From positions 176,685-188,569 of the IMG/VR virus record IMGVR_UViG_3300036766_000644: a DNA stretch of 11,885 nt; one strand, written 5' to 3'. This document shows, piece by piece, positions 4,058-11,885 of the stretch. Both the position numbers and the translations under genes were made by a program. The notes beneath the pieces were generated by a model that did not search any database, was not told the origin of the DNA, and saw only the letters and a program-made list of their open reading frames with translations. Each line of letters starts with the position of its first letter. Positions within the stretch are counted from its first letter, which is position 1. The stretch is from a virus.

Positions 4058-4618
4058 TCAGTCGTGAGTGTAGAACAGGAGGTTCTGGATTGCACCGAAA
4101 CCCTTGCTCAGGTCCTGGTCGAAGAAGTTGTTCGCACCAGCCTGGGCGATGTGGCAGAAGTCCGTGCCAGGCAGCACGACCGCGACGTGCCCGATCCCGC
4201 CGGGGTTCTTCCAGACGACCACGGAGGGGAGTCCTTTGGAGGCGCGCTCCATTGCCTTGCTCTTCCCACACTGCATCCAGCCGAACTTAGAAGAGTGCGT
4301 GGCGAACCAGTCGCAGACGCCGTTGGCAGACAACTCCTTGCCCTTCCCACGAGGAACTTCAACGCCGGTCGCCGGGTCAACCCAGTGGGGAACCTCGCAG
4401 CTCATGGCGACGGTGACGTCCCAGAGGTAAATGTTGCAGTAGGTCTCCTGCCCGTTGGCGGGATTCCCGTCATGGCCCCGAACGTATCGAGGATTCGTCT
4501 CCACCTCGAACTGTTTGGCCGCGGCTACGTAGTTCGCTGGGGATCGGTCGCTCAACGGGATCGTCAGGTCGGGTGTCACTTCTTCCCATGCGGCGGGGTT
4601 CTTCATGGAGGGGTTCAT
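4058..4618 (-). CDS. Putative peptidoglycan hydrolase of the papain-like Cys-His type (NlpC/P60 or CHAP-like amidase/peptidase). Candidate endolysin or virion-associated lysin.
   Basis: 186-aa ORF with candidate catalytic Cys in ETYCNIYLWDVT and His in GIGHVAVVLPG about 85 residues downstream; this order and spacing are typical of CHAP/NlpC-P60 enzymes. ATG at 4618-4616 lies one nt after the stop of the upstream glycine-zipper gene. Confidence 0.45.
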   Translation of the reverse strand: MNPSMKNPAAWEEVTPDLTIPLSDRSPANYVAAAKQFEVETNPRYVRGHDGNPANGQETYCNIYLWDVTVAMSCEVPHWVDPATGVEVPRGKGKELSANGVCDWFATHSSKFGWMQCGKSKAMERASKGLPSVVVWKNPGGIGHVAVVLPGTDFCHIAQAGANNFFDQDLSKGFGAIQNLLFYTHD

Positions 4619-5264: not shown

Positions 5265-5471
5265 TTACTTTCCGCCCTTCAACATCTCCGCCGGAACCGC
5301 GAGCATGTTGTAGATGGCGTCCTTCTGGTGCTGGAAGTACTCGTCTAGCTCGAAGTCTGGAACGTAGGACGCAGATCCGAAGAGACAAGCACCGTCGGGC
5401 ATGTGGTGCTCCCGGATAGCCCAGCAACTTCGGCAGGGGATGTTGAGGACCCATTTCGCAGTGAGCTTCAA
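5265..5471 (-). CDS. Cys-motif small protein, paralog 1 (CRSC-x6-HHMPDGAC-LF). TTG start overlapping the stop of paralog 2 (TTGA).
   Basis: GGAGGA RBS 7 nt upstream of the TTG at 5471-5469. Shares the CxxC...H.D..C.F motif with four neighbouring genes. TAA stop at 5265-5267. Confidence 0.5.
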   Translation of the reverse strand: MKLTAKWVLNIPCRSCWAIREHHMPDGACLFGSASYVPDFELDEYFQHQKDAIYNMLAVPAEMLKGGK

Positions 5472-5671
5472 AAGAGGATCCTCCGGAGCAGTGAGTCGCT
5501 GTAGGGCTCCAACACCGCTGGCTTGTAGAACTGGAACAACGCCGAGTTGACCCGCTCCACTGTGAGCCCTGTTATCGCCGCGAAGTTGCTCGCCTCAAAA
5601 GGGCACTTCTCATCGACGTGGTGCTGGTACTGCTTTCGGCAGTTGGAGCAGCGGGTGGTTGGGGTGGTCAC
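5468..5671 (-). CDS. Cys-motif small protein, paralog 2 (CSNCRKQYQHHVDEKCPFEASNF). GTG start at 5671-5669 overlapping the stop of paralog 3 (GTGA). The track extends it to 5848, inside paralog 3.
   Basis: AGAAGGTG RBS 5 nt upstream of the GTG. The GTGA stop/start overlap was read directly. The N-terminal extension in the track would overlap the paralog 3 coding sequence by 180 nt. Confidence 0.5.
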   Translation of the reverse strand: MTTPTTRCSNCRKQYQHHVDEKCPFEASNFAAITGLTVERVNSALFQFYKPAVLEPYSDSLLRRILF

Positions 5672-5904
5672 TTGTACACCTTCTTGAATCCCCATACGCC
5701 GCCGAAGGTAGCCGTGATGGCGCCGCTCGCCGGGGGCAGGGGCGCTGGGACGAAAGGTATCCGCTCCAGGCTGGCTTCGAAGTTGGACGCTTCGAAAGGG
5801 CACTTCTGGTCGATGTGCACGGTGCCCGGCTTCCCGCAGTTGAGGCACTCCGACGTAGGGTCAGGGACGAATGACTCTTCGAGAGTCGATCCGGTGTCGT
5901 TCAT
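5668..5904 (-). CDS. Cys-motif small protein, paralog 3 (MNDTGSTLEESFVPDPTSECLNCGKPGTVHIDQKCPFEASNFEAS...). ATG overlaps the stop of paralog 4 (ATGA).
   Basis: Strong RBS AAGGAG with a 5-nt spacer before the ATG at 5904-5902. About 30 nt of near-identical DNA shared with paralog 2 (aagttg.ncgc.tc.aaagggcacttct..tcga.gtg). Confidence 0.55.
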   Translation of the reverse strand: MNDTGSTLEESFVPDPTSECLNCGKPGTVHIDQKCPFEASNFEASLERIPFVPAPLPPASGAITATFGGVWGFKKVYK

Positions 5905-6092
5905 TTCTTCTCCTTGTCTTTGGGCTCTTCTACGTAGCACTTGATCGTCTGCTTCAGCACGCTGATGCCCCCGGGCTTGAACTCCGAGGAGTCGAAGAGG
6001 CACTTCTTGTCGAGGTGCTGCGTGTAGTCCTTACCGCAGTTGGCGCAGGTCCGGCGCATCACCGGCATCCTGAGCTTGTACTCTTTGCTCAC
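5901..6092 (-). CDS. Cys-motif small protein, paralog 4 (CANCGKDYTQHLDKKCLFDSSEF). GTG at 6092-6090 overlaps the upstream stop (GTGA); the alternative ATG at 6068 gives MPVMRRTCANC.
   Basis: Motif conserved. Start codon ambiguous, with no clear SD for either candidate. Confidence 0.45.
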   Translation of the reverse strand: MSKEYKLRMPVMRRTCANCGKDYTQHLDKKCLFDSSEFKPGGISVLKQTIKCYVEEPKDKEKK

Positions 6093-6367
6093 GGGTCCGT
6101 GACGCCCATGATCCGACCATCCCCCTGCCAGTCTTTGTACTCGAGCGTGTACTCCACCGGGCCATTCTGCTTGTAGCCTTGTGCCCTGCTGCTGGGTTCG
6201 TCGCTGCTGTAGATCGGGTCCAGTTGTCGGTTGAGGCTCCAGTTCAGGTTCTTGCCGAACCCGTCGGGATTCTTTGCGTCCATGAGCACCTGCTCTGTGT
6301 GGTGCCCCGTCTCCAAGTCTTCTACGGTGAGGGTGATCTGAAGCCGTACTACTTTCTGCGTCGTCAT
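6089..6367 (-). CDS. Hypothetical protein (92 aa, MTTQKVVRLQITLTVEDLETGHH...) inserted between paralogs 5 and 4. It lacks the Cys motif.
   Basis: ATG at 6367-6365 preceded by AGGGG. Its TGA stop overlaps the start of paralog 4. Confidence 0.45.
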   Translation of the reverse strand: MTTQKVVRLQITLTVEDLETGHHTEQVLMDAKNPDGFGKNLNWSLNRQLDPIYSSDEPSSRAQGYKQNGPVEYTLEYKDWQGDGRIMGVTDP

Positions 6368-6375
6368 TTTAACCC

Positions 6376-6645
6376 CTATACGGTGAAGGTGAGCCCCATG
6401 TACTGAATCGTCTTCTTAACGCGGATCTTCATGTCCACGTGAACCTTGTCCCCGTCGGTGACGGTGTTGTCTTCTTCGATGACTCTCTCGCAGCTGCAGT
6501 CCAGGTGGTCGTTGACCGTCTCTTCGCGGTACTGCGTAAAGTCGAAGAGGCAGGCCCCATCGACATGGGCTTCCTTCGGCTTCCGGCAGTTGCCGCAGCG
6601 CCCCTTCTCGACCGTGTGAACCAGGTCCTTCTGGATGGAATGCAT
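6376..6645 (-). CDS. Cys-motif small protein, paralog 5 (CGNCRKPKEAHVDGACLFDFTQY) with an extra C-terminal extension containing DCSC. Probably the first gene of the leftward operon, and possibly leaderless.
   Basis: ATG at 6645-6643. The track start at 6687 is a TTG with no RBS. A TAnnnT element (TACTCT) lies 6 nt upstream of the ATG. Confidence 0.45.
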   Translation of the reverse strand: MHSIQKDLVHTVEKGRCGNCRKPKEAHVDGACLFDFTQYREETVNDHLDCSCERVIEEDNTVTDGDKVHVDMKIRVKKTIQYMGLTFTV

Positions 6646-6719
6646 GGGCGCAGAGTACCCGCGTTCGGAGGGAAAAAGCAACGCCAAATTAGGGTATCAG
6701 TAGTTGAAGGGCCCACACC
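6646..6719. promoter_or_regulatory. Divergent control region. Candidate leftward sigma-70-like promoter (TTGCTT, 18-nt spacer, TACTCT, 6 nt to ATG 6645) overlapping rightward promoter-motif copy 1 (aaattagggtatcagtagttgaagg, 6686-6710, 10 nt before ATG 6720).
   Basis: Hexamers read from the reverse complement of 6652-6681. Motif copy 1 is the most degenerate of the seven copies. Confidence 0.35.
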
Positions 6720-7094
6720 ATGACTACACTGAAATCCTTCCTCAACGGAGCTCGTAGAAACGCCTACATCAAGTACCCGGGCTTCAATTTTATGTACGTC
6801 CGACACACCAAGCGGTTCGGTATCGAAGTGATCGACCTCGCCAACCTGGAGGCGAAGGAACCTGGGCGGGGTTCGTTCGCCCGCCTGGTCAAGCACATAC
6901 GTAAGACGTACCCCCACTTGGGGATCTACGTCGAGTGCGTGCTGAACGAACGGTTCGAAGGCAAGTTGCTCGCAATGGGATTCACCCGTTGCGACGTCGG
7001 AATGAGCGCATGCTTTTACCTCTCACCGGAGATGGAGCTGAATGATCAAACCAGTCAAAGAAGCCCTCAACGAAGTTCTATGGAACCTGCGTGA
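6720..7094 (+). CDS. Small GNAT-family N-acetyltransferase-like protein (124 aa).
   Basis: Segment IEVIDLANLEAKEPGRGSFARLVKHI resembles GNAT motif A (R/Q-x-x-G-x-G/A, acetyl-CoA pyrophosphate loop). VLNERFEGKLLAMGFT resembles motif B (N..A..lYek.GF). The 3' end overlaps the next gene by 53 nt in another frame. Confidence 0.4.
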   Translation: MTTLKSFLNGARRNAYIKYPGFNFMYVRHTKRFGIEVIDLANLEAKEPGRGSFARLVKHIRKTYPHLGIYVECVLNERFEGKLLAMGFTRCDVGMSACFYLSPEMELNDQTSQRSPQRSSMEPA

Positions 7095-7380
7095 GGGGCA
7101 GGCCGTAGTAGGCGTCAAGCGTGACAAGTGGATAGCCCTCATCGAGGCTATCCTGCTGGACGCCGAAGAGAATGAGAAGCTCTTCGTCGATACGAAGATG
7201 CGGCTGATGCGTAACCGCTATTCACTCGAAGAGGTGAAGCAGATTGCAAAGGAGTACGCTGCAACCATCGGCGGAACGCAGTTCGGGCGAACCCGGACGG
7301 ACGTGGAAGACGAAGAAGACTGCAGGCGGAACCTCGAGCGTGTGATCCTCGAAGTGACGGAGAAGAGGACGCTTGGCTAA
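7042..7380 (+). CDS. Hypothetical protein (112 aa, MIKPVKEALNEVLWNLREGQAVVG...).
   Basis: Two GGAG boxes 4 and 10 nt upstream of ATG 7042. Composition is protein-like. TAA stop at 7378-7380. Confidence 0.5.
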   Translation: MIKPVKEALNEVLWNLREGQAVVGVKRDKWIALIEAILLDAEENEKLFVDTKMRLMRNRYSLEEVKQIAKEYAATIGGTQFGRTRTDVEDEEDCRRNLERVILEVTEKRTLG

Positions 7381-7594
7381 ACCGAAACAAGACGACCTTT
7401 CCAGGCGCCGTAGGCTCAACAAGGGCCAGTGCCCGACCCACGGAACAGGGCTCGAGCAAATCGGAGTTGCGACGAACCAACAGGGGATTCCTTTCGGGGA
7501 CACGCTCGCGTGCCCCCGGAAGGACTGTGACTTCTGGACGGAAGTCCGACCCGGAACTAAGCTTTGGGAGGTGCTGCGGTCAAGCGGTGGGTGA
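7373..7594 (+). CDS. Small basic zinc-finger-like protein (73 aa; CPTHG...ACPRKDC, KPKQDDLSRRRRLNK N-terminus). Possible DNA-binding regulator. TTG start overlaps the upstream stop.
   Basis: AGAGGA then a 3-nt spacer before the TTG at 7373. ORF ends just before the hairpin/T-run region. The C-x2-H ... C-x4-C spacing suggests a metal-binding knuckle. Confidence 0.4.
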   Translation: MAKPKQDDLSRRRRLNKGQCPTHGTGLEQIGVATNQQGIPFGDTLACPRKDCDFWTEVRPGTKLWEVLRSSGG

Positions 7595-7600
7595 CCGGCA

Positions 7601-7725
7601 TTCCTGAGTACTTGTTCTGTTCGTCCGGGTACTCAGTAACAACTACCGCAGTGGGGGTCTCGGGGACAGCTGCACCTCCCCCCGGGAGACCTCACCGTCT
7701 GGCCCACGAAACGGGCTTGTTTTTT
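7601..7725 (+). terminator. Cluster of stem-loops ending in a T-run: ttcctgagtac[17]gtactcagtaa at 7601-7639, ggtctcgggg...ccccccgggagacc at 7656-7691, then gcccacgaaacgggc followed by ttgtttttt at 7699-7725. Probable end of the first rightward transcription unit.
   Basis: Inverted repeats read directly from the sequence. The T6 run merges into promoter-motif copy 2. Confidence 0.35.
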
Positions 7726-7743
7726 GGGTATCAGTCTTTGAGC
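7716..7743 (+). promoter_or_regulatory. Promoter-like motif copy 2: cttgttttttGGGTATCAGTCTTTGAGC.
   Basis: One of seven direct copies of the conserved motif. Lies 24 nt upstream of ATG 7767. Confidence 0.5.
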
Positions 7744-7766
7744 ATTCCAGCTCAAGAAAGGTACTC

Positions 7767-8378
7767 ATGGCCGACATGTTCGTCAACCGCCACGCTGTGG
7801 CGGGAATCGATACCAAGGTAGTTTTTAAGAAGGACCTCGAGGGCACCGCCCCAGGGATCGAGGGGGTCCCCAAGTGGATGGCGGTGAACTTCGCCGTCGA
7901 GAACATGGGGCCTGTGGAGCTCTTGCTCCATGGGGGGAGTCTCAAGACTCTGATCGAGGTGCTCCAGAAGGGCCTGGAGAAGCTTCGGACGGAGCCGGAG
8001 GTCCTCTACACGGGCCTCTTCCTCACCCCGGAGTTCAAGGGGGCCCTGCTGGAGGCGTATCCGGCCTTCCACCCCCGACTCCACGCCGACCACGTGACAG
8101 TGGTTTTCAGGCCCGACGAGGCCATGCGGTTTCTGCTGGAGCCTCAGATCGGCAAGGAGTTCCCGATCGTGGTCACCGGAGCCGCTGCGGACGAAAAGGG
8201 GCAGGTTGTGGGCGTTAAGATCCCCTCATTCCTGCAGCATGGAGATCAGCGCCCCCACGTCACCATCTCCTGCGCTGTCAATACAGCGCCGGTCTACAGC
8301 AACCAGCTGCTGGACAAGCTGGTGGAGGTGGCGCCCCTCAAGCTGGTGGGGGTGCTCCGGCACTTCATGTCGAAGTAG
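7767..8378 (+). CDS. 2H phosphoesterase superfamily protein (LigT / 2',5' RNA ligase or cyclic phosphodiesterase-like). Candidate RNA-end healing enzyme or cyclic-nucleotide-degrading anti-defence enzyme.
   Basis: Two H-x-T-x motifs, each followed by hydrophobic residues: DHVTVVF at aa 108-114 and PHVTISC at aa 163-169. This pair is the defining signature of the 2H fold. RBS GAAAGG lies 8 nt upstream of the ATG. Confidence 0.55.
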   Translation: MADMFVNRHAVAGIDTKVVFKKDLEGTAPGIEGVPKWMAVNFAVENMGPVELLLHGGSLKTLIEVLQKGLEKLRTEPEVLYTGLFLTPEFKGALLEAYPAFHPRLHADHVTVVFRPDEAMRFLLEPQIGKEFPIVVTGAAADEKGQVVGVKIPSFLQHGDQRPHVTISCAVNTAPVYSNQLLDKLVEVAPLKLVGVLRHFMSK

Positions 8379-8386
8379 CTCCTCCG

Positions 8387-8410
8387 GGGGCCCCTCTTCG
8401 GAGGGGTCCC
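8387..8410 (+). terminator. Stem-loop ggggcccctc-TTCG-gaggggtccc (10-bp stem with 1 mismatch, UUCG tetraloop) after the 2H gene. No adjacent U-tract, so it may be a processing or stability hairpin rather than an intrinsic terminator.
   Basis: Read directly. Belongs to a ~75-bp hairpin+motif module duplicated at 9085-9167 and 9817-9923. Confidence 0.4.
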
Positions 8411-8427
8411 TGGGAGACCCTAAAAGT

Positions 8428-8456
8428 GATCATTTTTAGGGTATTAGACTTTGAAC
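8428..8456 (+). promoter_or_regulatory. Promoter-like motif copy 3: gatcatttttaGGGTATTAGACTTTGAAC.
   Basis: Conserved motif. Lies 21 nt upstream of ATG 8477, which has an AAGGAG RBS. Confidence 0.5.
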
Positions 8457-8476
8457 CCTTACAAAGGAGTTACATC

Positions 8477-9088
8477 ATGGGCTTGCCCGGGAATACCCGA
8501 ACCGTAACGAATCAGTCGGCCACCTGCGAGCAGGAGAACTGCTTCCGAAAGGCGGTGATCCGTCTGCAGGGGGAGACGGACAGTTTCGGAGCTGAGTCCG
8601 CGGAGCTGTGCGAGGAGTGCTACAAGGAGGGCCTCGCGAAGGAGGCGGCCGAGCGGGCCGCTGGAACGCACTGGATGCAGTCGGCGCACTGCGACTGGTG
8701 CAAGAAGAGCGGGGTCGCGGTGTCCCACAAGCGGGACACCGACGGGGAGGGGACCAGCGGTCCGGTCTACCTCGTCTGTGACCCCTGCAGCGATCGGTAT
8801 GACGCTGCGCTCGCTGAAGAGTACCGCGCCGAGAAGCTCCAGAAGATGGGGTACTCCTCCGAGTTGGAGTACCGGTTGGCGCAGCAGGACGCAGAGGACC
8901 GCCTGTGGGAGGACGAGGATGAGGCTCGCCACATGAACTCCCTGTGGTCCCCCACCATGGCGGTGGAGTGGAAGAGGGAGGCCTTCGAGGAGGCGGTCCT
9001 CGGGTACTACTACGATCCGGATACACGGATCGACCGGCTCCACGAGGCGGCCCTCGAGGAGGCCGCTGCCCGGTCCGAGTACTACTGA
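8477..9088 (+). CDS. Acidic Cys-rich protein with four CxxC-type pairs (CEQENC, CEEC, CDWC, CDPC; probably two zinc ribbons) and a strongly acidic C-terminal half.
   Basis: ATG preceded by AAGGAG. About 43 acidic versus 23 basic residues in 203 aa. The 240-aa antisense ORF 8475-9197 is Pro/Arg/Ser-rich junk. Confidence 0.55.
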   Translation: MGLPGNTRTVTNQSATCEQENCFRKAVIRLQGETDSFGAESAELCEECYKEGLAKEAAERAAGTHWMQSAHCDWCKKSGVAVSHKRDTDGEGTSGPVYLVCDPCSDRYDAALAEEYRAEKLQKMGYSSELEYRLAQQDAEDRLWEDEDEARHMNSLWSPTMAVEWKREAFEEAVLGYYYDPDTRIDRLHEAALEEAAARSEYY

Positions 9089-9116
9089 GCTCCCCCAGGG
9101 GCCCCTCTTCGGAGGG
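9085..9116 (+). terminator. Stem-loop cccaggggcccctc-TTCG-gaggggtccctggg (14-bp stem with 1 mismatch, UUCG loop).
   Basis: Read directly. Paralogous to the hairpins at 8387 and 9817. Confidence 0.4.
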
Positions 9117-9137
9117 GTCCCTGGGAAGGCGTAAAAC

Positions 9138-9167
9138 GATCATTTTTAGGGGTATGAGTCTTTGAGC
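9138..9167 (+). promoter_or_regulatory. Promoter-like motif copy 4: gatcatttttaGGGGTATGAGTCTTTGAGC.
   Basis: Conserved motif. Lies 44 nt upstream of ATG 9211. Confidence 0.5.
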
Positions 9168-9210
9168 CCGTACACTGCCTGGCAGTCCGGCGCTCACCCT
9201 TGGAGGGGTG

Positions 9211-9810
9211 ATGAACCCAACACAGAAGAAGATTCAAGAGGCCTTGGTCAACACGATGTTGACCGATTTGACCCACCTCGCGCTGACGTTCAATCAGCGC
9301 AACCCGGGCGAGGGCCAGGTCGGCTCTCGCTGGGACGAGACGCAGAGCCCGGCGAGCCTCATCGCCGCGGCTGAAACCCCCTACGGCTACGACGCCGGAG
9401 ACAATGCATTTGGTGGGTGTGAGTATTTCCAGTTGCCCATTCCGGGCAGTCTGGGGATCCTCCCCATCGACGCGGTCATCCACATGGGGGTTGGCCCGGA
9501 TGGCGCGGAGCGGAAGGTCTCTTTGGAGGACCCCAAGAAGACGACGGGGTCATCTGGGGGTGGCGTCCAGGCGATCCTGGACGTCACGGAGATCCAGTAC
9601 GCGCTCCACGCACGTAAGGTTCGCTTCAGCGTGGTCTCCCTCGGGCGGGAGAAGGAGGGGGCCCCCCTCCAGGTGTTCACGGTTCATCCGGGGGACGTCT
9701 CCCCGTATGTACCGGGCCTCAACAAGCCCGAGCTGATCGGGCGCGTCGTGACGGCGCAGGAGGCCAAGGACCTCGGGGTCCTCATCGTGAAGCTGCGGAT
9801 CCGGGCCTAA
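9211..9810 (+). CDS. Hypothetical protein (199 aa, MNPTQKKIQEALVNTMLTDLTHL...). The GTG at 9208 is an alternative start.
   Basis: GGAGGGG precedes the ATG. Composition is protein-like. TAA stop at 9808-9810, then a perfect hairpin. Confidence 0.55.
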   Translation: MNPTQKKIQEALVNTMLTDLTHLALTFNQRNPGEGQVGSRWDETQSPASLIAAAETPYGYDAGDNAFGGCEYFQLPIPGSLGILPIDAVIHMGVGPDGAERKVSLEDPKKTTGSSGGGVQAILDVTEIQYALHARKVRFSVVSLGREKEGAPLQVFTVHPGDVSPYVPGLNKPELIGRVVTAQEAKDLGVLIVKLRIRA

Positions 9811-9816
9811 ATGCCC

Positions 9817-9846
9817 CCAGGGACCCCTCTTCGGAGGGGTCCCTGG
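9817..9846 (+). terminator. Perfect 13-bp stem-loop ccagggacccctc-TTCG-gaggggtccctgg (UUCG tetraloop), followed at 9857-9866 by a decayed motif fragment cttgtttttagcc.
   Basis: Read directly from the sequence. Confidence 0.45.
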
Positions 9847-9894
9847 CCCGTAGGCCTTGTTTTTAGCCCTAAACGGCCCCAGGATCATAAAACT

Positions 9895-9923
9895 GATCAA
9901 AATGGGGGTATGAGTACTTGAGC
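9895..9923 (+). promoter_or_regulatory. Promoter-like motif copy 5: gatcaaaatgGGGGTATGAGTACTTGAGC. Here the T-run is replaced by aaaatg.
   Basis: Conserved motif. Lies 50 nt upstream of ATG 9973. Confidence 0.45.
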
Positions 9924-9972
9924 CCAAGTATAGCTGTTCCACCCGTAGTCCGGGGCTCAAAAAGGACACCAG

Positions 9973-10200
9973 ATGAGCTACCTCTTCCCCACCACCTCCG
10001 AGAAGATCTTCAACCGTAAGAACCTCTCGGTCGCCGCTGACGTGACTGTCATCGCCACCGCCGCCATCCCCCTCGCCATCTGGCTGTTCGATGCGGCGAA
10101 GGGCCTCGTCGGCACCGCCTCGACGGCCGCCGCGTCGGTCGCCGCGAAGTTCCAGGCCCGCCGCCCGTCGCACGTGTCCTCGATGCAGGACGTCGGCTAA
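9973..10200 (+). CDS. Small membrane protein (75 aa; TM helix VTVIATAAIPLAIWLF).
   Basis: RBS AAAGGA precedes the ATG. One hydrophobic helix. TAA stop, then an intrinsic terminator. Confidence 0.5.
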   Translation: MSYLFPTTSEKIFNRKNLSVAADVTVIATAAIPLAIWLFDAAKGLVGTASTAAASVAAKFQARRPSHVSSMQDVG

Positions 10201-10224
10201 ACGGCTTCGATCCTCCACCCCTAC

Positions 10225-10256
10225 ACGGGGGCCCTCACAGGCCCCCGTTGTTTTTG
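10225..10256 (+). terminator. Rho-independent terminator: acgggggcc-ctcaca-ggcccccgt, then tgtttttg.
   Basis: 9-bp GC-rich stem immediately followed by a U-tract. Confidence 0.6.
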
Positions 10257-10271
10257 CTCAAAGGAGCTCAC

Positions 10272-10415
10272 ATGTCGCGTTTCGATACGTTCGCTTTCGG
10301 GGTCGTCTTCGGGGTAGGCTTCGCCTTGCTGTACGCCGGGGCTAAAGCGGTCTTCGGTACCCACACCTGCTGCTGCCCTGGAACGGGGGCCCCGCTGGAG
10401 GAGTCCAATGCTTGA
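10272..10415 (+). CDS. Small hydrophobic peptide (47 aa, MSRFDTFAFGVVFGVGFALLYAGAKAVFGTHTCCCPGTGAPLEESNA). Not in the ORF track.
   Basis: AAGGAG RBS 5 nt upstream of ATG 10272. Single TM-like segment followed by a CCC motif. TGA at 10413-10415. Confidence 0.4.
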   Translation: MSRFDTFAFGVVFGVGFALLYAGAKAVFGTHTCCCPGTGAPLEESNA

Positions 10416-10569
10416 TCCAATTAAGCTGTTCGCTGACAAACCTCCAGAGGAGTTGACCGGATCAGAGATCCTGGTCAAAGCCATCTTCACGTGCCTCTCC
10501 TTCCTCATGAAGGTGGAGGAGTTCGAGGGTCGCCTCCTGGAAGCCGAGAAGTCCGCCAAGAAGAGCTAA
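10408..10569 (+). CDS. Small protein (53 aa, MLDPIKLFADKPPEELTGSEILVKAIFTCLSFLMKVEEFEGRLLEAEKSAKKS). Its ATG overlaps the upstream stop (ATGCTTGA). Not in the ORF track.
   Basis: GGAGGA RBS 5 nt upstream. Open to the TAA at 10567-10569, then a terminator. Confidence 0.4.
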   Translation: MLDPIKLFADKPPEELTGSEILVKAIFTCLSFLMKVEEFEGRLLEAEKSAKKS

Positions 10570-10573
10570 AAGA

Positions 10574-10612
10574 CGAGCCACCCGGGGGTCCCCTGAGGTG
10601 GCTTTTCTTTTG
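10574..10612 (+). terminator. Rho-independent terminator: agccacc(c)ggggg-tc-cccct(ga)ggtggct, then tttctttt.
   Basis: Long GC-rich stem followed by a U-tract. Confidence 0.55.
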
Positions 10613-10628
10613 ATCAGAAAAGAGCCTC

Positions 10629-10652
10629 TTTTTTAGGTATCAGTCTTTGAGC
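10629..10652 (+). promoter_or_regulatory. Promoter-like motif copy 6: ttttttaGGTATCAGTCTTTGAGC. Lies only 4 nt before ATG 10657, which implies a leaderless or very short-leader mRNA.
   Basis: Conserved motif. No SD lies between the motif and the ATG. Confidence 0.5.
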
Positions 10653-10656
10653 AATC

Positions 10657-11169
10657 ATGCTCGAGAAAGGTGCCTTCGTGGACAAGTCCACTGCTTATGT
10701 TGTGTCCGCCGTCCTTACCACCATCGCCGGGATCGCCGGTTTCTTCCTCGGTCGTCGCAATGACGCCGAGCGTACCGCCTCCGCCCTCGAGCGGCAGGCG
10801 CTGATCGCCGCTGAGAAGGCGGCGAGCGAGCGTACCTACACGCTCCAGATCAAGGCCACCACGCAGGCCCGCCAGGAGGCCGCCGAGGCGGAGCGCCAGG
10901 AGGCGGCGCGGATCGCCGCCCTCACCCCCGCCCAGCGGGAAGCCTTCGAGTCGGAGCGCAAGCACAAGGAGGAGGCGGCCAACGCCCGCATCGCCGCCCA
11001 GCGGGAGGCCGACGCTGCCTACGCCATCGCTGCCGCCGAGCAGCGCCAGGCGCTGGCCGCTGAGGAGATGGTTCGCGAGACGCGGCGCCTTCGCCGGGAG
11101 ATCGCGGACGTCGCCTACACGGCGCCGTCTCCGGCGTACTACCTGGGCCTGTACACCCGGGGGTACTGA
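10657..11169 (+). CDS. Membrane-anchored coiled-coil protein. N-terminal TM (VVSAVLTTIAGIAGFFLG), then an Ala/Glu/Arg/Gln-rich helical region. The topology resembles an i-spanin or Rz, but the function is unknown.
   Basis: 170-aa ORF. The 201-aa antisense ORF is Arg/Gly/Leu-rich junk. TGA stop, then a terminator. Confidence 0.5.
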   Translation: MLEKGAFVDKSTAYVVSAVLTTIAGIAGFFLGRRNDAERTASALERQALIAAEKAASERTYTLQIKATTQARQEAAEAERQEAARIAALTPAQREAFESERKHKEEAANARIAAQREADAAYAIAAAEQRQALAAEEMVRETRRLRREIADVAYTAPSPAYYLGLYTRGY

Positions 11170-11182
11170 GTCACGCCGTCCG

Positions 11183-11215
11183 CCGCCCACAGAACATCGT
11201 GGGCGGTTTCTTTTG
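11183..11215 (+). terminator. Rho-independent terminator: ccgcccac-agaacatc-gtgggcgg, then tttcttttg.
   Basis: 8-bp stem followed by a U-tract. Confidence 0.55.
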
Positions 11216-11227
11216 CCTAGGAGTGCC

Positions 11228-11677
11228 ATGGAACTCATCCTGCTGTGCGGGATCTCTGGGTCGGGTAAGACGACCTACCGTGACAAACACTTTCCCGACG
11301 CAGTTCTGGCGTCGGCAGACGATGGAATGATGGAGAACGGGATCTACGTGTTCCGAGGGTCCAACCTCGAGCACGCCCACGGAGCTTGTTTCCGGCGGGT
11401 AATCGAGGCCCTTCAGTCTCGCCGCCCGCTGGTGGTTGTGGACAATACGAACATCACCATTGAAGCGGTGGCCCCGTATATGTCCGCAGGGGAAGCCTAC
11501 GGGTACAAGGTCCGGCTCCTCTGCCTGAAGTTGGCCCCCGAGATCGCTGGCCCTCGGAACACCCACAAGGTACCGCAGGCCAAGGTCGAGGAGATGGCAA
11601 AGACGTTCGACGCCTTCCTCAAGAACCTCCCAAGGCGCTGGAAAGCACGCGTAGAACTGGTCCCCGCCGATCCGTAG
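11228..11677 (+). CDS. P-loop kinase of the polynucleotide-kinase / AAA_33 type (MELILLCGISGSGKTT ... PLVVVDNTNI).
   Basis: Walker A GISGSGKTT at the N-terminus. The hhhhDNTN Walker-B-like motif, as I recall it, is characteristic of PNK-family kinases. AGGAG RBS 4 nt upstream of ATG 11228. The track starts 15 nt earlier, with no RBS. Confidence 0.5.
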   Translation: MELILLCGISGSGKTTYRDKHFPDAVLASADDGMMENGIYVFRGSNLEHAHGACFRRVIEALQSRRPLVVVDNTNITIEAVAPYMSAGEAYGYKVRLLCLKLAPEIAGPRNTHKVPQAKVEEMAKTFDAFLKNLPRRWKARVELVPADP

Positions 11678-11694
11678 GCGGGGGCCTTTTTTTG
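11662..11694 (+). terminator. Hairpin ccccgcc-gatccgtag-ggcgggg, then gcc and ttttttt, which merges into motif copy 7.
   Basis: 7-bp GC stem, 3 nt, then a T7 run. Confidence 0.45.
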
Positions 11695-11710
11695 GTATCA
11701 GATCTTGAGC
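11686..11710 (+). promoter_or_regulatory. Promoter-like motif copy 7: ctttttttGGTATCAGATCTTGAGC.
   Basis: Conserved motif. Lies 38 nt upstream of ATG 11749. Confidence 0.45.
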
Positions 11711-11748
11711 CTCAGCTTTACTCCCACGGGCTCGGAAAGGTACCACAC

Positions 11749-11885
11749 ATGCAGCTCATGTTGGCCTACGTGGCAGCCGCCACCTCCCCAGAGGAGCTTC
11801 TCTGGATCGCGGAGTTCGCAGCGGAGTTGAAAACCGCGGCGGATACACGCCGTTGGGGCCCGATCCTGGGCCGTCTTGAGAACTC
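11749..11885 (+). CDS. Hypothetical protein, N-terminal fragment (MQLMLAYVAAATSPEELLWIAEFAAELKTAADTRRWGPILGRLEN...) running off the window.
   Basis: GGAAAGG RBS 8 nt upstream. Open to the end of the window. Confidence 0.45.
   Translation, partial: MQLMLAYVAAATSPEELLWIAEFAAELKTAADTRRWGPILGRLEN

What the first reader, a model, noticed from the sequence alone, without database searches (positions are those of the whole stretch)
8383..9923. Duplicated ~75-bp intergenic module: GC-rich stem-loop with UUCG tetraloop, ~20-nt spacer, then the promoter motif
Modules at 8387-8456 and 9085-9167 are near-identical: ...gaggggtccctggga[g/a]...taaaa[gt/c]gatcatttttagggtat... A third module at 9817-9923 has a perfect 13-bp stem (ccagggacccctc TTCG gaggggtccctgg) plus an insertion. 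The hairpins are about 15-20 nt from any U-run, so they are poor intrinsic terminators. UUCG tetraloops on long perfect stems are classical RNA-stabilising or RNase III-type processing elements, as between T7 early genes. Copying of hairpin and promoter as a single unit suggests gene cassettes are shuffled by recombination between these modules.
Basis: seen in the sequence. Interest (0 to 1): 0.55.

Follow-up and report, generated by a model that had tools for sequence, protein, structure and literature searches.

The report
Phage terminator-promoter modules bounding gene cassettes
Three near-identical intergenic units (a stable RNA hairpin, an AT-rich TGATCA box and a phage promoter) separate unrelated small genes in an uncultured ~190-kb phage. 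Close relatives carry zero, one or two extra genes at one of these sites, with the first boundary mapped to the hairpin, much like the PeSL regulatory cassettes that shuffle genes in T4-like phages.

Summary
Hairpins at 8384-8413, 9094-9125 and 9817-9846 each precede a (T/G)AAAAnTGATC box and the promoter-like motif GGTATNAG-N3-TTGAR. That motif occurs 7 times in the window, always on the + strand upstream of a gene (0 expected by chance). Modules 1 and 2 are about 85% identical from stop codon to promoter, while the flanking genes are unrelated.

The window belongs to an uncultured phage lineage with contigs of about 187-204 kb. Relatives carry the same modules.

The hairpin looks selected as sense-strand RNA. 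All 11 copies pair, with G.U pairs and compensatory changes, and the loops switch among UUCG, GAAA and A-rich.

One site holds 0 (L013), 1 (window, g9211) or 2 (L028) units of promoter, gene and hairpin. The L013/window junction falls in the hairpin.

The cassette-shuffling idea is therefore supported. The RNase III/T7 analogy is not: the stems are only 12-17 bp and perfect.

The closest known system is the PeSL/PmSL composite terminator-promoter cassettes of T4-like phages. I file this as a new member of that kind in a different phage lineage, with a promoter that is not sigma-70-like. Transcript ends, the polymerase and the box-binding factor are all untested.

The parts
8384..8413 (+). Hairpin 1: CCGGGGGCCCCTC-TTCG-GAGGGGTCCCTGG. 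It starts 6 nt after the TAG stop of g7767.
   Evidence: -31 kcal/mol as sense RNA against -24 as antisense, with G.U pairs.
8421..8438 (+). Box 1: TAAAAGTGATCATTTTTA, a near-perfect 18-bp palindrome. It spans about -33 to -16 relative to the inferred transcription start.
   Evidence: A perfect palindrome, TAAAAATGATCATTTTTA, sits at the equivalent place in L009/L014.
8440..8456 (+). Promoter motif 1 (class B): GGTATTAGACTTTGAAC. The -10-like hexamer TATTAG is at 8442-8447. The inferred start is near G8453/A8454. SD AAGGAG is at 8464-8469 and the ATG at 8477.
   Evidence: The start position is inferred from the leaderless ortholog in L009.
9094..9125 (+). Hairpin 2: 14-bp stem with a TTCG loop. 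It starts 6 nt after the TGA stop of g8477.
9132..9148 (+). Box 2: TAAAACGATCATTTTTA.
9151..9167 (+). Promoter motif 2 (class B): GGTATGAGTCTTTGAGC. It lies upstream of g9211 (ATG at 9211).
9125..9813 (+). Cassette present here and absent from the close relative L013. It comprises spacer, box 2, promoter 2, the 5'UTR, g9211 (199 aa, no known family) and the flank up to hairpin 3.
   Evidence: L013 1001-2754 matches window 7374-9124 and L013 2724-4734 matches window 9814-11831. Also. L028 has this cassette plus a second one.
9817..9846 (+). Hairpin 3: perfect 13-bp stem CCAGGGACCCCTC-TTCG-GAGGGGTCCCTGG. It starts 6 nt after the TAA stop of g9211.
9847..9886 (+). A 40-nt insertion specific to module 3. 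It includes a weak GGCC-cgta-GGCC stem (9845-9856) followed by TTGTTTTT (9857-9864).
   Evidence: It is conserved in L013 and L028. It was not called terminator-like by the scan.
9888..9899 (+). Box 3: TAAAACTGATCA. The right half is A-rich, so this copy is not palindromic.
9907..9923 (+). Promoter motif 3 (class B): GGTATGAGTACTTGAGC. It lies upstream of g9973.
6693..6709 (+). Class A promoter copy (GGTATCAG...) at the divergent junction. It is the first promoter of the + strand gene block.
7701..7743 (+). Small hairpin plus T-run (7701-7726) abutting a class A promoter (7727-7743).
10575..10652 (+). Terminator-like hairpin plus T-run, then TTTTGATCAGAAAA, then a class A promoter (10636-10652).
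11659..11710 (+). Strong canonical terminator (10-bp stem plus T7) directly abutting a class A promoter (11694-11710).
9918..9960 (+). An example of the 5'UTR stem. The promoter-proximal TTGAGCCC pairs with GGGCTCAA just before the SD. Equivalent stems are at 7737-7756, 9164-9195, 10646-10665 and 11705-11735.
   Evidence: GCTCRA follows all 11 TTGAGC/CTGAGC promoters examined, with unrelated loops of 4-27 nt.

Best explanation
Each module is a composite regulatory junction that fills the whole space between two unrelated accessory genes of an uncultured phage lineage with contigs of about 187-204 kb.

(1) A very stable stem-loop begins 6 nt after the upstream stop codon and is selected as sense-strand RNA. 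It most likely forms the 3' end of the upstream message, acting as a U-tract-independent terminator or attenuator and as a barrier to 3' exonucleases.

(2) An AT-rich box, (T/G)AAAAnTGATC, lies 13-15 nt upstream of the promoter core, where a -35 element would normally sit. It is most likely the binding site of a regulator that defines a separate promoter class. In layout it resembles the Mot box of T4 middle promoters.

(3) The promoter core is GGTAT(G/T)AG-N3-TTGA, with transcription starting in or near TTGA.

(4) A 5'UTR stem pairs the first transcribed bases (TTGAGC) with GCTCRA just before the ribosome-binding site.

Because the same 30-85 bp are repeated at successive junctions, they serve as homology for recombination. 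This adds or removes whole units of box, promoter, gene and hairpin.

Shown here: the repeats, the RNA-type conservation of the hairpin, conservation of the modules in relatives, and the nested 0/1/2 cassette series with the L013/window junction in the hairpin.

Inferred, not shown: termination or stabilisation, the transcription start, the box-binding factor, and the recombination mechanism.
For: Repeat and chance:
- establish the repeats and that chance does not explain them.
- The flanking genes are unrelated.

RNA-level selection on the hairpin:
- All 11 hairpin copies from 5 sources (window, L013, L014, L023, L028) pair at every stem position.
- One position alternates between G.U, A-U and G-C. 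Double compensatory changes occur at 2-3 positions. Loops are UUCG (4 copies), GAAA (5 copies) and A-rich (2 copies).
- Sense RNA is more stable than antisense by 4-11 kcal/mol in 6 of 7 copies.

Lineage:
- The neighbouring 2045-aa protein has 37 homologs, on contigs up to 188-204 kb.

Modules in relatives:
- L009/L014/L020, L015, L023 and L028.

Restriction to the + strand gene block:
- There is no motif or hairpin in about 16 kb of the adjacent structural region.

Two promoter classes:
- All 13 box-bearing promoter copies have G or T at hexamer position 4.
- Every promoter copy with C at that position lacks the box. Those with a hairpin plus T-run abut it directly (the copy at 6693 has neither).
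- The GGGGTCCCTGG-type hairpin occurs only upstream of box-bearing (class B) promoters.

Start site:
- In L009 the ATG begins 8 nt after GGTATCAG (7 nt intervene), which implies a leaderless message.
- The 5'UTR stems begin at TTGAGC.

Cassette series:
-.
- The conserved anchors g7767 and g11228 have different gene sets between them in each relative examined that carries both.

Precedent:
- PeSL and PmSL elements (PMC2839356; PMC4122927).
Against: - There is no transcript data, so neither 3' ends at the hairpins nor starts at TTGA are shown.
- The hairpins lack a U-tract, while the same region uses canonical hairpin plus T-run terminators at five other junctions. They may therefore terminate poorly and act only after read-through or processing.
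- The -10-like hexamer has an invariant G where sigma-70-type promoters have the highly conserved T at -7, and there is no -35 element. The polymerase or sigma factor is unknown, and so is the host.
- The 3' arm GGGGTCCC is invariant across all copies, which is more than structure alone requires.
- Individual 5'UTR folds are not significant against shuffles.
- Two of the three indels between the window and L013 are not at modules.
- The identical stretch at the L013 crossover is only about 10 nt.
- The hairpin copies are related by descent, so the counts are not independent events.
Confidence: 0.7

Rival explanations
1. RNase III-type processing sites, as between T7 early genes. A polycistronic transcript would be cut within the hairpins.
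For: - The structures are stable and intergenic and lack a U-tract.
- Their position immediately after stop codons resembles the T7 R sites.
Against: - The stems are 12-17 perfect base pairs. From general knowledge, that is shorter than the roughly two helical turns, usually with an internal loop, of RNase III substrates.
- Each downstream gene has its own promoter motif, so a polycistronic precursor is not required.
- Loops vary among stable tetraloop types, which fits a stability role rather than a cleavage role.
Confidence: 0.08
2. Purely functional convergence. The hairpins and promoters are ordinary regulatory signals kept similar by selection, and they play no part in recombination. The indels at these sites arise by unrelated illegitimate events.
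For: - Two other indels between the window and L013 lie at gene overlaps or a 5'UTR, not at modules.
- The identical stretch at the L013 junction is short.
Against: - Similarity extends into parts with no obvious function, such as AGCTCC(T/C)CC right after the stop codon.
- Three related sequences (the window, L013 and the 1.2-kb fragment L028) differ by whole units at the same site. The L013/window junction lies inside the hairpin, and the ends of the L028-specific segment lie at hairpins.
- The hairpin is linked exclusively to one promoter class.
Confidence: 0.12
3. A site-specific system. The hairpin would be the folded recombination site of a dedicated recombinase (analogous to integron attC sites) or the end of a miniature mobile element, rather than passive homology.
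For: - The 3' arm GGGGTCCC is invariant in all 11 copies, while the 5' arm and the loop vary.
- The L013/window junction maps to the hairpin and the L028-specific segment starts and ends at hairpins.
- The PeSL authors raised the same possibility for T4-like phages (PMC2839356).
Against: - No integrase or transposase family was detected among the window proteins scanned against Pfam or PHROGs, or in the Pfam marks on genes called in the fetched relatives.
- There are no target-site duplications or terminal inverted repeats around cassettes.
- G.U pairs, which would be mismatches on the other strand, point to sense RNA rather than a DNA site.
Confidence: 0.07
4. A double-stranded DNA protein-binding palindrome, for example a site for a repressor or a replication or packaging factor, rather than an RNA element.
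For: - The sequence is an inverted repeat with one invariant arm.
- The neighbouring TGATCA box is itself palindromic in some copies.
Against: - Six of seven copies carry G.U pairs that become C.A mismatches on the other strand, and antisense folds are 4-11 kcal/mol weaker.
- Loops switch between UUCG and GAAA, both stable RNA tetraloops.
- All copies are in the sense orientation, directly after stop codons.
Confidence: 0.03

Closest known systems
PeSL (promoter-early stem-loop) cassettes of T4-like phages (Arbiol et al. 2010, PMC2839356; Comeau et al. 2014, PMC4122927)
   Same: [quoted passage not shown] It contains a stem-loop, an AT-rich stretch, a promoter and an SD.
- The stem is G-run/C-run.
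- It is repeated at successive junctions between small genes of unknown function in a variable region.
- Close relatives differ by whole genes bounded by the motifs, with at least one crossover mapped within the stem-loop.
   Different: - A different phage lineage: rIIA is only 27% identical to T4-likes, and the 592-aa fibre and 354-aa structural proteins have no match in the phage collection.
- The promoter is not sigma-70-like. It has no -35 element and its hexamer is TATNAG.
- The stem-loop always lies upstream of the promoter, and it shows RNA-type covariation and tetraloops.
- Promoter activity, terminator activity and mini-circle formation have been demonstrated for PeSLs but are untested here.
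PmSL (promoter-middle stem-loop) of vibriophage nt-1 and T4 MotA-dependent middle promoters (PMC4122927; PMC2988021)
   Same: - The class B modules have a conserved box in place of a -35 element, at a fixed short distance from a -10-like hexamer (9-11 bp here, 12 +/- 1 bp for the Mot box).
- A stem-loop lies upstream.
   Different: - The box sequence is (T/G)AAAAnTGATC, partly palindromic, not TGCTT.
- No MotA or AsiA homolog was looked for or found.
- The temporal class is unknown.
REP/BIME repetitive extragenic palindromes of enterobacteria
   Same: - GC-rich imperfect palindromes repeated just after stop codons.
- From general knowledge, they are thought to protect upstream mRNA from 3' exonucleases and they act as recombination substrates.
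   Different: - REPs are chromosomal and are not coupled to a promoter.
- They are mobilised by RAYT transposases, and none is seen here.
Integron gene cassettes (ORF plus attC)
   Same: - The unit of gain and loss is one ORF plus one hairpin-forming repeat.
- Arrays of such units sit at one site.
   Different: - Integron cassettes are promoterless and are recombined by IntI at folded single-stranded attC sites.
- Here every unit carries its own promoter and no integrase is seen.
Intrinsic (Rho-independent) terminators
   Same: - A GC-rich stem with a stable tetraloop directly after a stop codon.
   Different: - There is no U-tract within 10 nt in any of the three modules (17-19 nt away in modules 1 and 2, about 11 nt in module 3).
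- Canonical terminators with U-tracts occur at five other junctions in the same window.

Membership tests
PeSL / composite terminator-promoter cassettes | An intergenic composite of a stem-loop plus a promoter plus an SD, spanning from stop codon to start codon | tested here: met
   The hairpin starts 6 nt after the stop in all three modules. The promoter motif, SD and start codon follow.
PeSL / composite terminator-promoter cassettes | Repeated many times, concentrated in a variable region upstream of small genes of unknown function, and rare in structural modules | tested here: met
   - Seven promoter copies and 3 hairpins lie in 5 kb of + strand genes, and none in about 16 kb of the adjacent structural region.
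- Gene content between the anchors g7767 and g11228 differs in each relative examined that carries both.
PeSL / composite terminator-promoter cassettes | Insertions, deletions or replacements between close relatives are bounded by the motifs | tested here: met
   - 0, 1 or 2 cassettes at one site in L013, the window and L028, with the L013/window junction in the hairpin.
- Two other indels are not at modules.
PeSL / composite terminator-promoter cassettes | A sigma-70-like early promoter (-35 TTGACA-like, 17 bp, -10 TATAAT-like) | tested here: not met
   - The consensus scan finds no sigma-70-type site at any module.
- There is no -35-like hexamer at 16-18 bp.
- The hexamer is TATNAG with an invariant G at the last position.
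PeSL / composite terminator-promoter cassettes | The host phage is a T4-like myovirus | tested here: inconclusive
   - rIIA and rIIB homologs are present, but rIIA is only 27% identical to T4-likes.
- The 592-aa fibre and the 354-aa structural protein have no match in the phage collection. The large structural proteins scanned have no informative PHROG or Pfam hits, only one weak head-decoration match.
- T4 core genes were not surveyed, because only about 30 kb of the genome was available.
PeSL / composite terminator-promoter cassettes | Demonstrated promoter activity, terminator activity and mini-circle formation | not testable with these tools
   This needs reporter assays, transcript end mapping and inverse PCR on infected cells.
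RNase III processing site (T7 R-site type) | A double-stranded stem of about two helical turns, typically with an internal loop, cleaved by RNase III | tested here: not met
   The stems are 12-17 perfect pairs without an internal loop. Cleavage itself is not testable here.
Canonical intrinsic terminator | A GC-rich hairpin followed within a few nucleotides by a U-tract | tested here: not met
   - The terminator scan lists none of the three hairpins.
- The nearest T-run is 17-19 nt away in modules 1 and 2 and about 11 nt away in module 3.
Rfam RNA families | A match to any curated covariance model | tested here: not met
   only two chance-level hits (E about 0.9), and they lie elsewhere in the region.

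The most novel reading that the evidence does not exclude
The modules may be more than passive homology.

The box-bearing promoters (class B) would form a separately regulated class, read by phage-specific transcription machinery. The evidence is the invariant G at the last position of the -10-like hexamer, the absence of a -35 element, and a TGATC box where the -35 element would be.

The hairpin, with its invariant GGGGTCCC arm, would be recognised by a dedicated factor that both defines mRNA 3' ends and targets cassette exchange. That would make this a promoter-carrying, integron-like cassette system in an uncultured phage lineage with contigs of about 187-204 kb.
Probability: 0.12. Interest if true: 0.7.

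Novelty: new member of a known kind. Interest (0 to 1): 0.45.

Why it matters
- It extends promoter/stem-loop-mediated modular shuffling beyond cultured T4-like phages. That mechanism is how large phages try out accessory genes without disrupting neighbouring expression. Here it appears in an uncultured, high-GC phage lineage with contigs of about 187-204 kb.
- The example is unusually clean: a nested series of zero, one and two cassettes at one site.
- It gives a ready-made promoter consensus, with two apparent classes, and 3'/5' mRNA end structures for a lineage that has no cultured member. These can guide annotation and metatranscriptome analysis.
- The modules mark where to look for fast-evolving accessory or anti-defence genes.

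Tried and rejected
- Megablast of the whole window against phage genomes found no match.
- An exact search for the hairpin in IMG/VR found no match.
- An exact 17-mer promoter search in IMG/VR gave 5 single hits in unrelated contigs. I judged these chance.
- A protein search with g8477 in IMG/VR found nothing. In cultured phages it found only a distant N-terminal domain in jumbo phages.
- I tested whether the three roughly 200-aa genes are diverged tandem paralogs. They are not.
- I looked for a DxDGD polymerase motif in the 2045-aa protein and found none. It has no Pfam or PHROG family.
- I compared the promoter motif by eye with sigma-54, Bacteroidetes -7/-33, ECF and T7/SP6 promoter patterns. 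None fits in spacing. A T7-like reading, with +1 at the G of TTGA, cannot be excluded.
- The genome-contig scans gave nothing with the 2045-aa protein. The 20-mer hairpin arm gave one chance hit inside a coding region of a Thermoanaerobaculales MAG. There is therefore no clue to the host.
- Rfam gave no family.
- GATC is not avoided in the window (77 observed against 42 expected), so the box is not explained by restriction-site or methylation-site depletion.
- One relative had no DNA on file.
Full report
**1. Observation**

The three modules are present as described.
- Hairpin 1 is 8384-8413: CCGGGGGCCCCTC, loop TTCG, GAGGGGTCCCTGG.
- Hairpin 2 is 9094-9125, with 14 pairs.
- Hairpin 3 is 9817-9846, with 13 perfect pairs.

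The 16-nt core CCCCTCTTCGGAGGGG occurs exactly three times, and no shuffle out of 200 reached three.

[quoted passage not shown] The 100 nt on either side are 26-28% identical, which is random. The three flanking proteins (203, 203 and 199 aa) show no similarity to each other. These are therefore intergenic repeats between unrelated genes, not diverged tandem gene duplicates.

Module 3 carries a 40-nt insertion (9847-9886) between hairpin and box.

The promoter-like motif GGTATNAG-N3-TTGAR occurs seven times: at 6693, 7727, 8440, 9151, 9907, 10636 and 11694. All copies are on the + strand and each lies upstream of a + strand gene. Shuffles gave none.

**2.

(a) The spacer is not neutral. It holds a box, TAAAAnTGATCA (8421-8432, 9132-9142, 9888-9899), with 4 matches against 0.07 expected. 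In module 1 it is part of a near-perfect 18-bp palindrome, TAAAAGTGATCATTTTTA. In a relative it is a perfect palindrome, TAAAAATGATCATTTTTA. In module 3 the right half is A-rich, so only the left half is universally conserved.

(b) The stems of modules 1 and 2 contain G.U pairs. As sense RNA the hairpins fold at -26 to -35 kcal/mol. That is 4-11 kcal/mol better than the antisense strand in six of seven copies.

(c) Downstream of the promoter, the conserved TTGAGC pairs with GCTCRA placed just before the ribosome-binding site. This holds for all 11 TTGAGC/CTGAGC promoters examined, with loops of 4-27 nt of unrelated sequence. The individual folds are not significant against shuffles. The argument rests on the recurring position of the stem.

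(d) Five other junctions in the window have canonical terminators, a GC hairpin followed directly by a T-run:
- 7701-7726
- 10225-10254
- 10575-10612
- 11182-11215
- 11659-11693

Three of these abut a promoter copy directly.

**3. Source and relatives**

The window is part of a 30-kb Logan contig.
- The + strand genes run divergently from a structural and lysis block on the - strand.
- That block includes a 592-aa Laminin_G_3 fibre-like protein and a 2045-aa protein with no known family.
- rIIA and rIIB homologs lie further along.

The 2045-aa protein has 37 homologs, on contigs up to 188-204 kb. This is an uncultured lineage of large phages. It has no nucleotide match among cultured phages, and its rIIA is only 27% identical to those of T4-likes. 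The host is unknown.

**4. The modules are conserved in the lineage**

The same architecture of hairpin, box and promoter occurs in several relatives:
- L009/L014/L020, a 187-kb contig with 75% identity in the 2045-aa protein
- L023, a 190-kb contig
- L013 and L028, which are close relatives
- L015 has the box plus promoter behind a different hairpin

Neither motif nor hairpin occurs in about 16 kb of the adjacent structural region.

Two promoter classes emerge.
- **Class A** has TATCAG as its hexamer and no box. In most copies a canonical terminator T-run abuts the promoter directly.
- **Class B** has TAT(G/T)AG, with the box 13-15 nt upstream of GGTAT.

All 13 box-bearing copies have G or T at hexamer position 4. 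All copies with C at that position lack the box. The GGGGTCCCTGG-type hairpin is found only upstream of class B promoters. Many of these copies are orthologs, so the counts overstate the number of independent events.

**5. Hairpin conservation**

I compared 11 copies from 5 sources.
- Every stem position pairs in every copy.
- One position alternates between G.U (4 copies), A-U (5) and G-C (2).
- Two to three positions show changes on both sides, C-G to U-A or to G-C.
- Loops are UUCG (4 copies), GAAA (5 copies) or A-rich (2 copies).
- UUCG and GAAA are both unusually stable RNA tetraloops (general knowledge).

Together with the strand asymmetry, this points to selection on a sense-strand RNA hairpin rather than on duplex DNA. 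The 3' arm GGGGTCCC is invariant, which is more than structure alone needs. It could reflect recent common descent, gene conversion or sequence-specific recognition.

**6. Cassette boundaries**

L013 is 82-98% identical to the window. L013 1001-2754 aligns to window 7374-9124, and L013 2724-4734 aligns to window 9814-11831. L013 therefore lacks window 9125-9813, which holds box 2, promoter 2, the 5'UTR and g9211.

The left flank of its single hairpin is of module-2 type, and everything 3' of the hairpin is of module-3 type.

L028 is a 1.2-kb contig that carries a g9211 homolog at 89% identity. It has g9211 with its module, followed by a second complete unit of hairpin, box, promoter and a 63-aa ORF found in no other locus fetched here. 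Module 3 comes after that.

One site therefore holds 0, 1 or 2 units in three closely related sequences. The L013/window boundary falls in the hairpin, and the L028-specific segment begins and ends at hairpins.

Further from the window, the conserved genes g7767 and g11228 bracket different gene sets in each relative examined that carries both. After the g7767 homolog, L014 has the same module followed by an unrelated 78-aa gene. In L029, a g9211 homolog at 68% identity sits behind a box-less promoter copy and has a different 3' hairpin.

As a control, two other indels between the window and L013 are not at modules. One is the loss of g7042 at overlapping stop and start codons. The other is an extra 129-aa ORF after the 6693 promoter.

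**7. Mechanism**

Best explanation (confidence 0.7): each module is a composite regulatory junction with four parts.
- An RNA 3' stem-loop for the upstream message.
- A regulator box.
- A promoter.
- A 5'UTR stem for the downstream message.

Its repetition provides homology for recombination that adds or removes units of box, promoter, gene and hairpin.

The transcription start is inferred to lie in TTGA. In L009 the first gene's ATG begins 8 nt after GGTATCAG (7 nt intervene), which implies a leaderless message. The 5'UTR stems also begin at TTGAGC.

The hexamer TATNAG then occupies the -10 position. However, it has an invariant G where sigma-70-type promoters have T at -7, and there is no -35 element. 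The enzyme or sigma factor is therefore unresolved.

The box occupies about -33 to -22. In layout this matches the Mot box of T4 middle promoters, which lies 12 +/- 1 bp from the -10 element (PMC2988021).

Whether the hairpin terminates transcription without a U-tract or only stabilises 3' ends cannot be decided here. PeSL stem-loops were shown to be effective terminators in reporter assays (PMC2839356).

**8. Rivals**

- RNase III sites: unlikely. The stems are 12-17 perfect pairs, each gene has its own promoter, and the loops vary.
- Functional convergence without any role in recombination: weakened by similarity in apparently non-functional flanks and by the nested cassette series.
- A site-specific or attC-like system: not excluded, given the invariant 3' arm. 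However, no recombinase is seen and the G.U pairs favour RNA.
- A duplex DNA-binding palindrome: disfavoured by the strand asymmetry.

**9. Comparison with the known**

The closest known system is the PeSL of T4-like phages, together with its Mot-box variant PmSL. These are composite terminator/promoter motifs running from stop codon to start codon. They are repeated in hyperplastic regions upstream of ORFans and bound the indels between close relatives, with crossovers sometimes inside the stem-loop (PMC2839356; PMC4122927).

Features met here:
- The composite structure.
- Repetition in a variable region.
- Module-bounded indels.

Not met: a sigma-70-like promoter.

Unresolved: T4-like ancestry.

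Not testable here: promoter activity, terminator activity and mini-circle formation.

I therefore describe it as working like a PeSL/PmSL. It is a new member of that kind of element in a different phage lineage, not a member of the T4 PeSL sequence family.

**10. Verdict**

The comparative evidence is clean and extends a known mechanism to an uncultured phage lineage with contigs of about 187-204 kb. The unusual promoter and the box leave room for lineage-specific transcription machinery.

Noticed in passing
window 5468-6645 (- strand): Four paralogous small genes in tandem share a 57-nt repeat family at 68-75% identity. They encode a Cys-rich motif (CxNCxK...H.D..CPF). Homologs sit at the same place in L014, L015 and L023.
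   Followed up: partly
window 7767-8378 and 11228-11677 (+ strand): g7767 has two H-x-T motifs (HVTVVF, HVTISC), which suggests a 2H phosphoesterase, but it has no Pfam hit. g11228 is an AAA_33 kinase related to polynucleotide kinase PHROGs. Both are conserved in L013, L015 and L023 (only g7767 was found in L014). They bracket the variable cassettes and may form an RNA-repair pair.
   Followed up: partly
L009 4522-4505 (- strand), equal to L014 9798: In this relative the first + block gene starts 8 nt after GGTATCAG (GGTATCAGgaatgacATG). This implies a leaderless mRNA. In the window the equivalent gene (ATG 6720) has a leader of roughly 12-15 nt without an SD.
   Followed up: partly
window 8477-9088: The N-terminal Cys-rich half of g8477 matches phrog_15864 and hypothetical proteins of cultured jumbo phages (Klebsiella Eowyn, Ralstonia RP12/RP31) at about 40% identity.
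   Followed up: no
L007 10593-16730 (just left of the window): A 2045-aa structural-block protein has no Pfam or PHROG family and no DxDGD motif. It is conserved at 40-75% identity in 37 proteins from contigs up to 204 kb, which makes it a useful marker for this uncultured lineage.
   Followed up: partly
window 10606-10620: A TTTTGATCAGAAAA near-palindrome lies between a terminator and a class A promoter, 26 nt upstream of GGTAT. It may be a displaced or degraded copy of the class B box. It is also present in L013 and L025.
   Followed up: no
window 7042-7380 and 6719-6756 compared with L013: L013 lacks g7042, with the junction at overlapping stop and start codons. L013 also has an extra 129-aa ORF right after the 6693 promoter. 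Neither indel is at a module.
   Followed up: yes
window 4058-4618 compared with L009 5217-5708: The 186-aa gene next to the fibre block is 87% conserved in L015. In L009 the gene at that position is a Peptidase_M15_4 gene instead, which suggests swapping of a lysis gene.
   Followed up: no
L014 14272-14318 and L025 1-180: The 187-kb contig ends right after a GAAA-loop hairpin. It begins with low-complexity G/C runs followed by a class B promoter. The assembly probably broke at a module in a circularly permuted genome.
   Followed up: no
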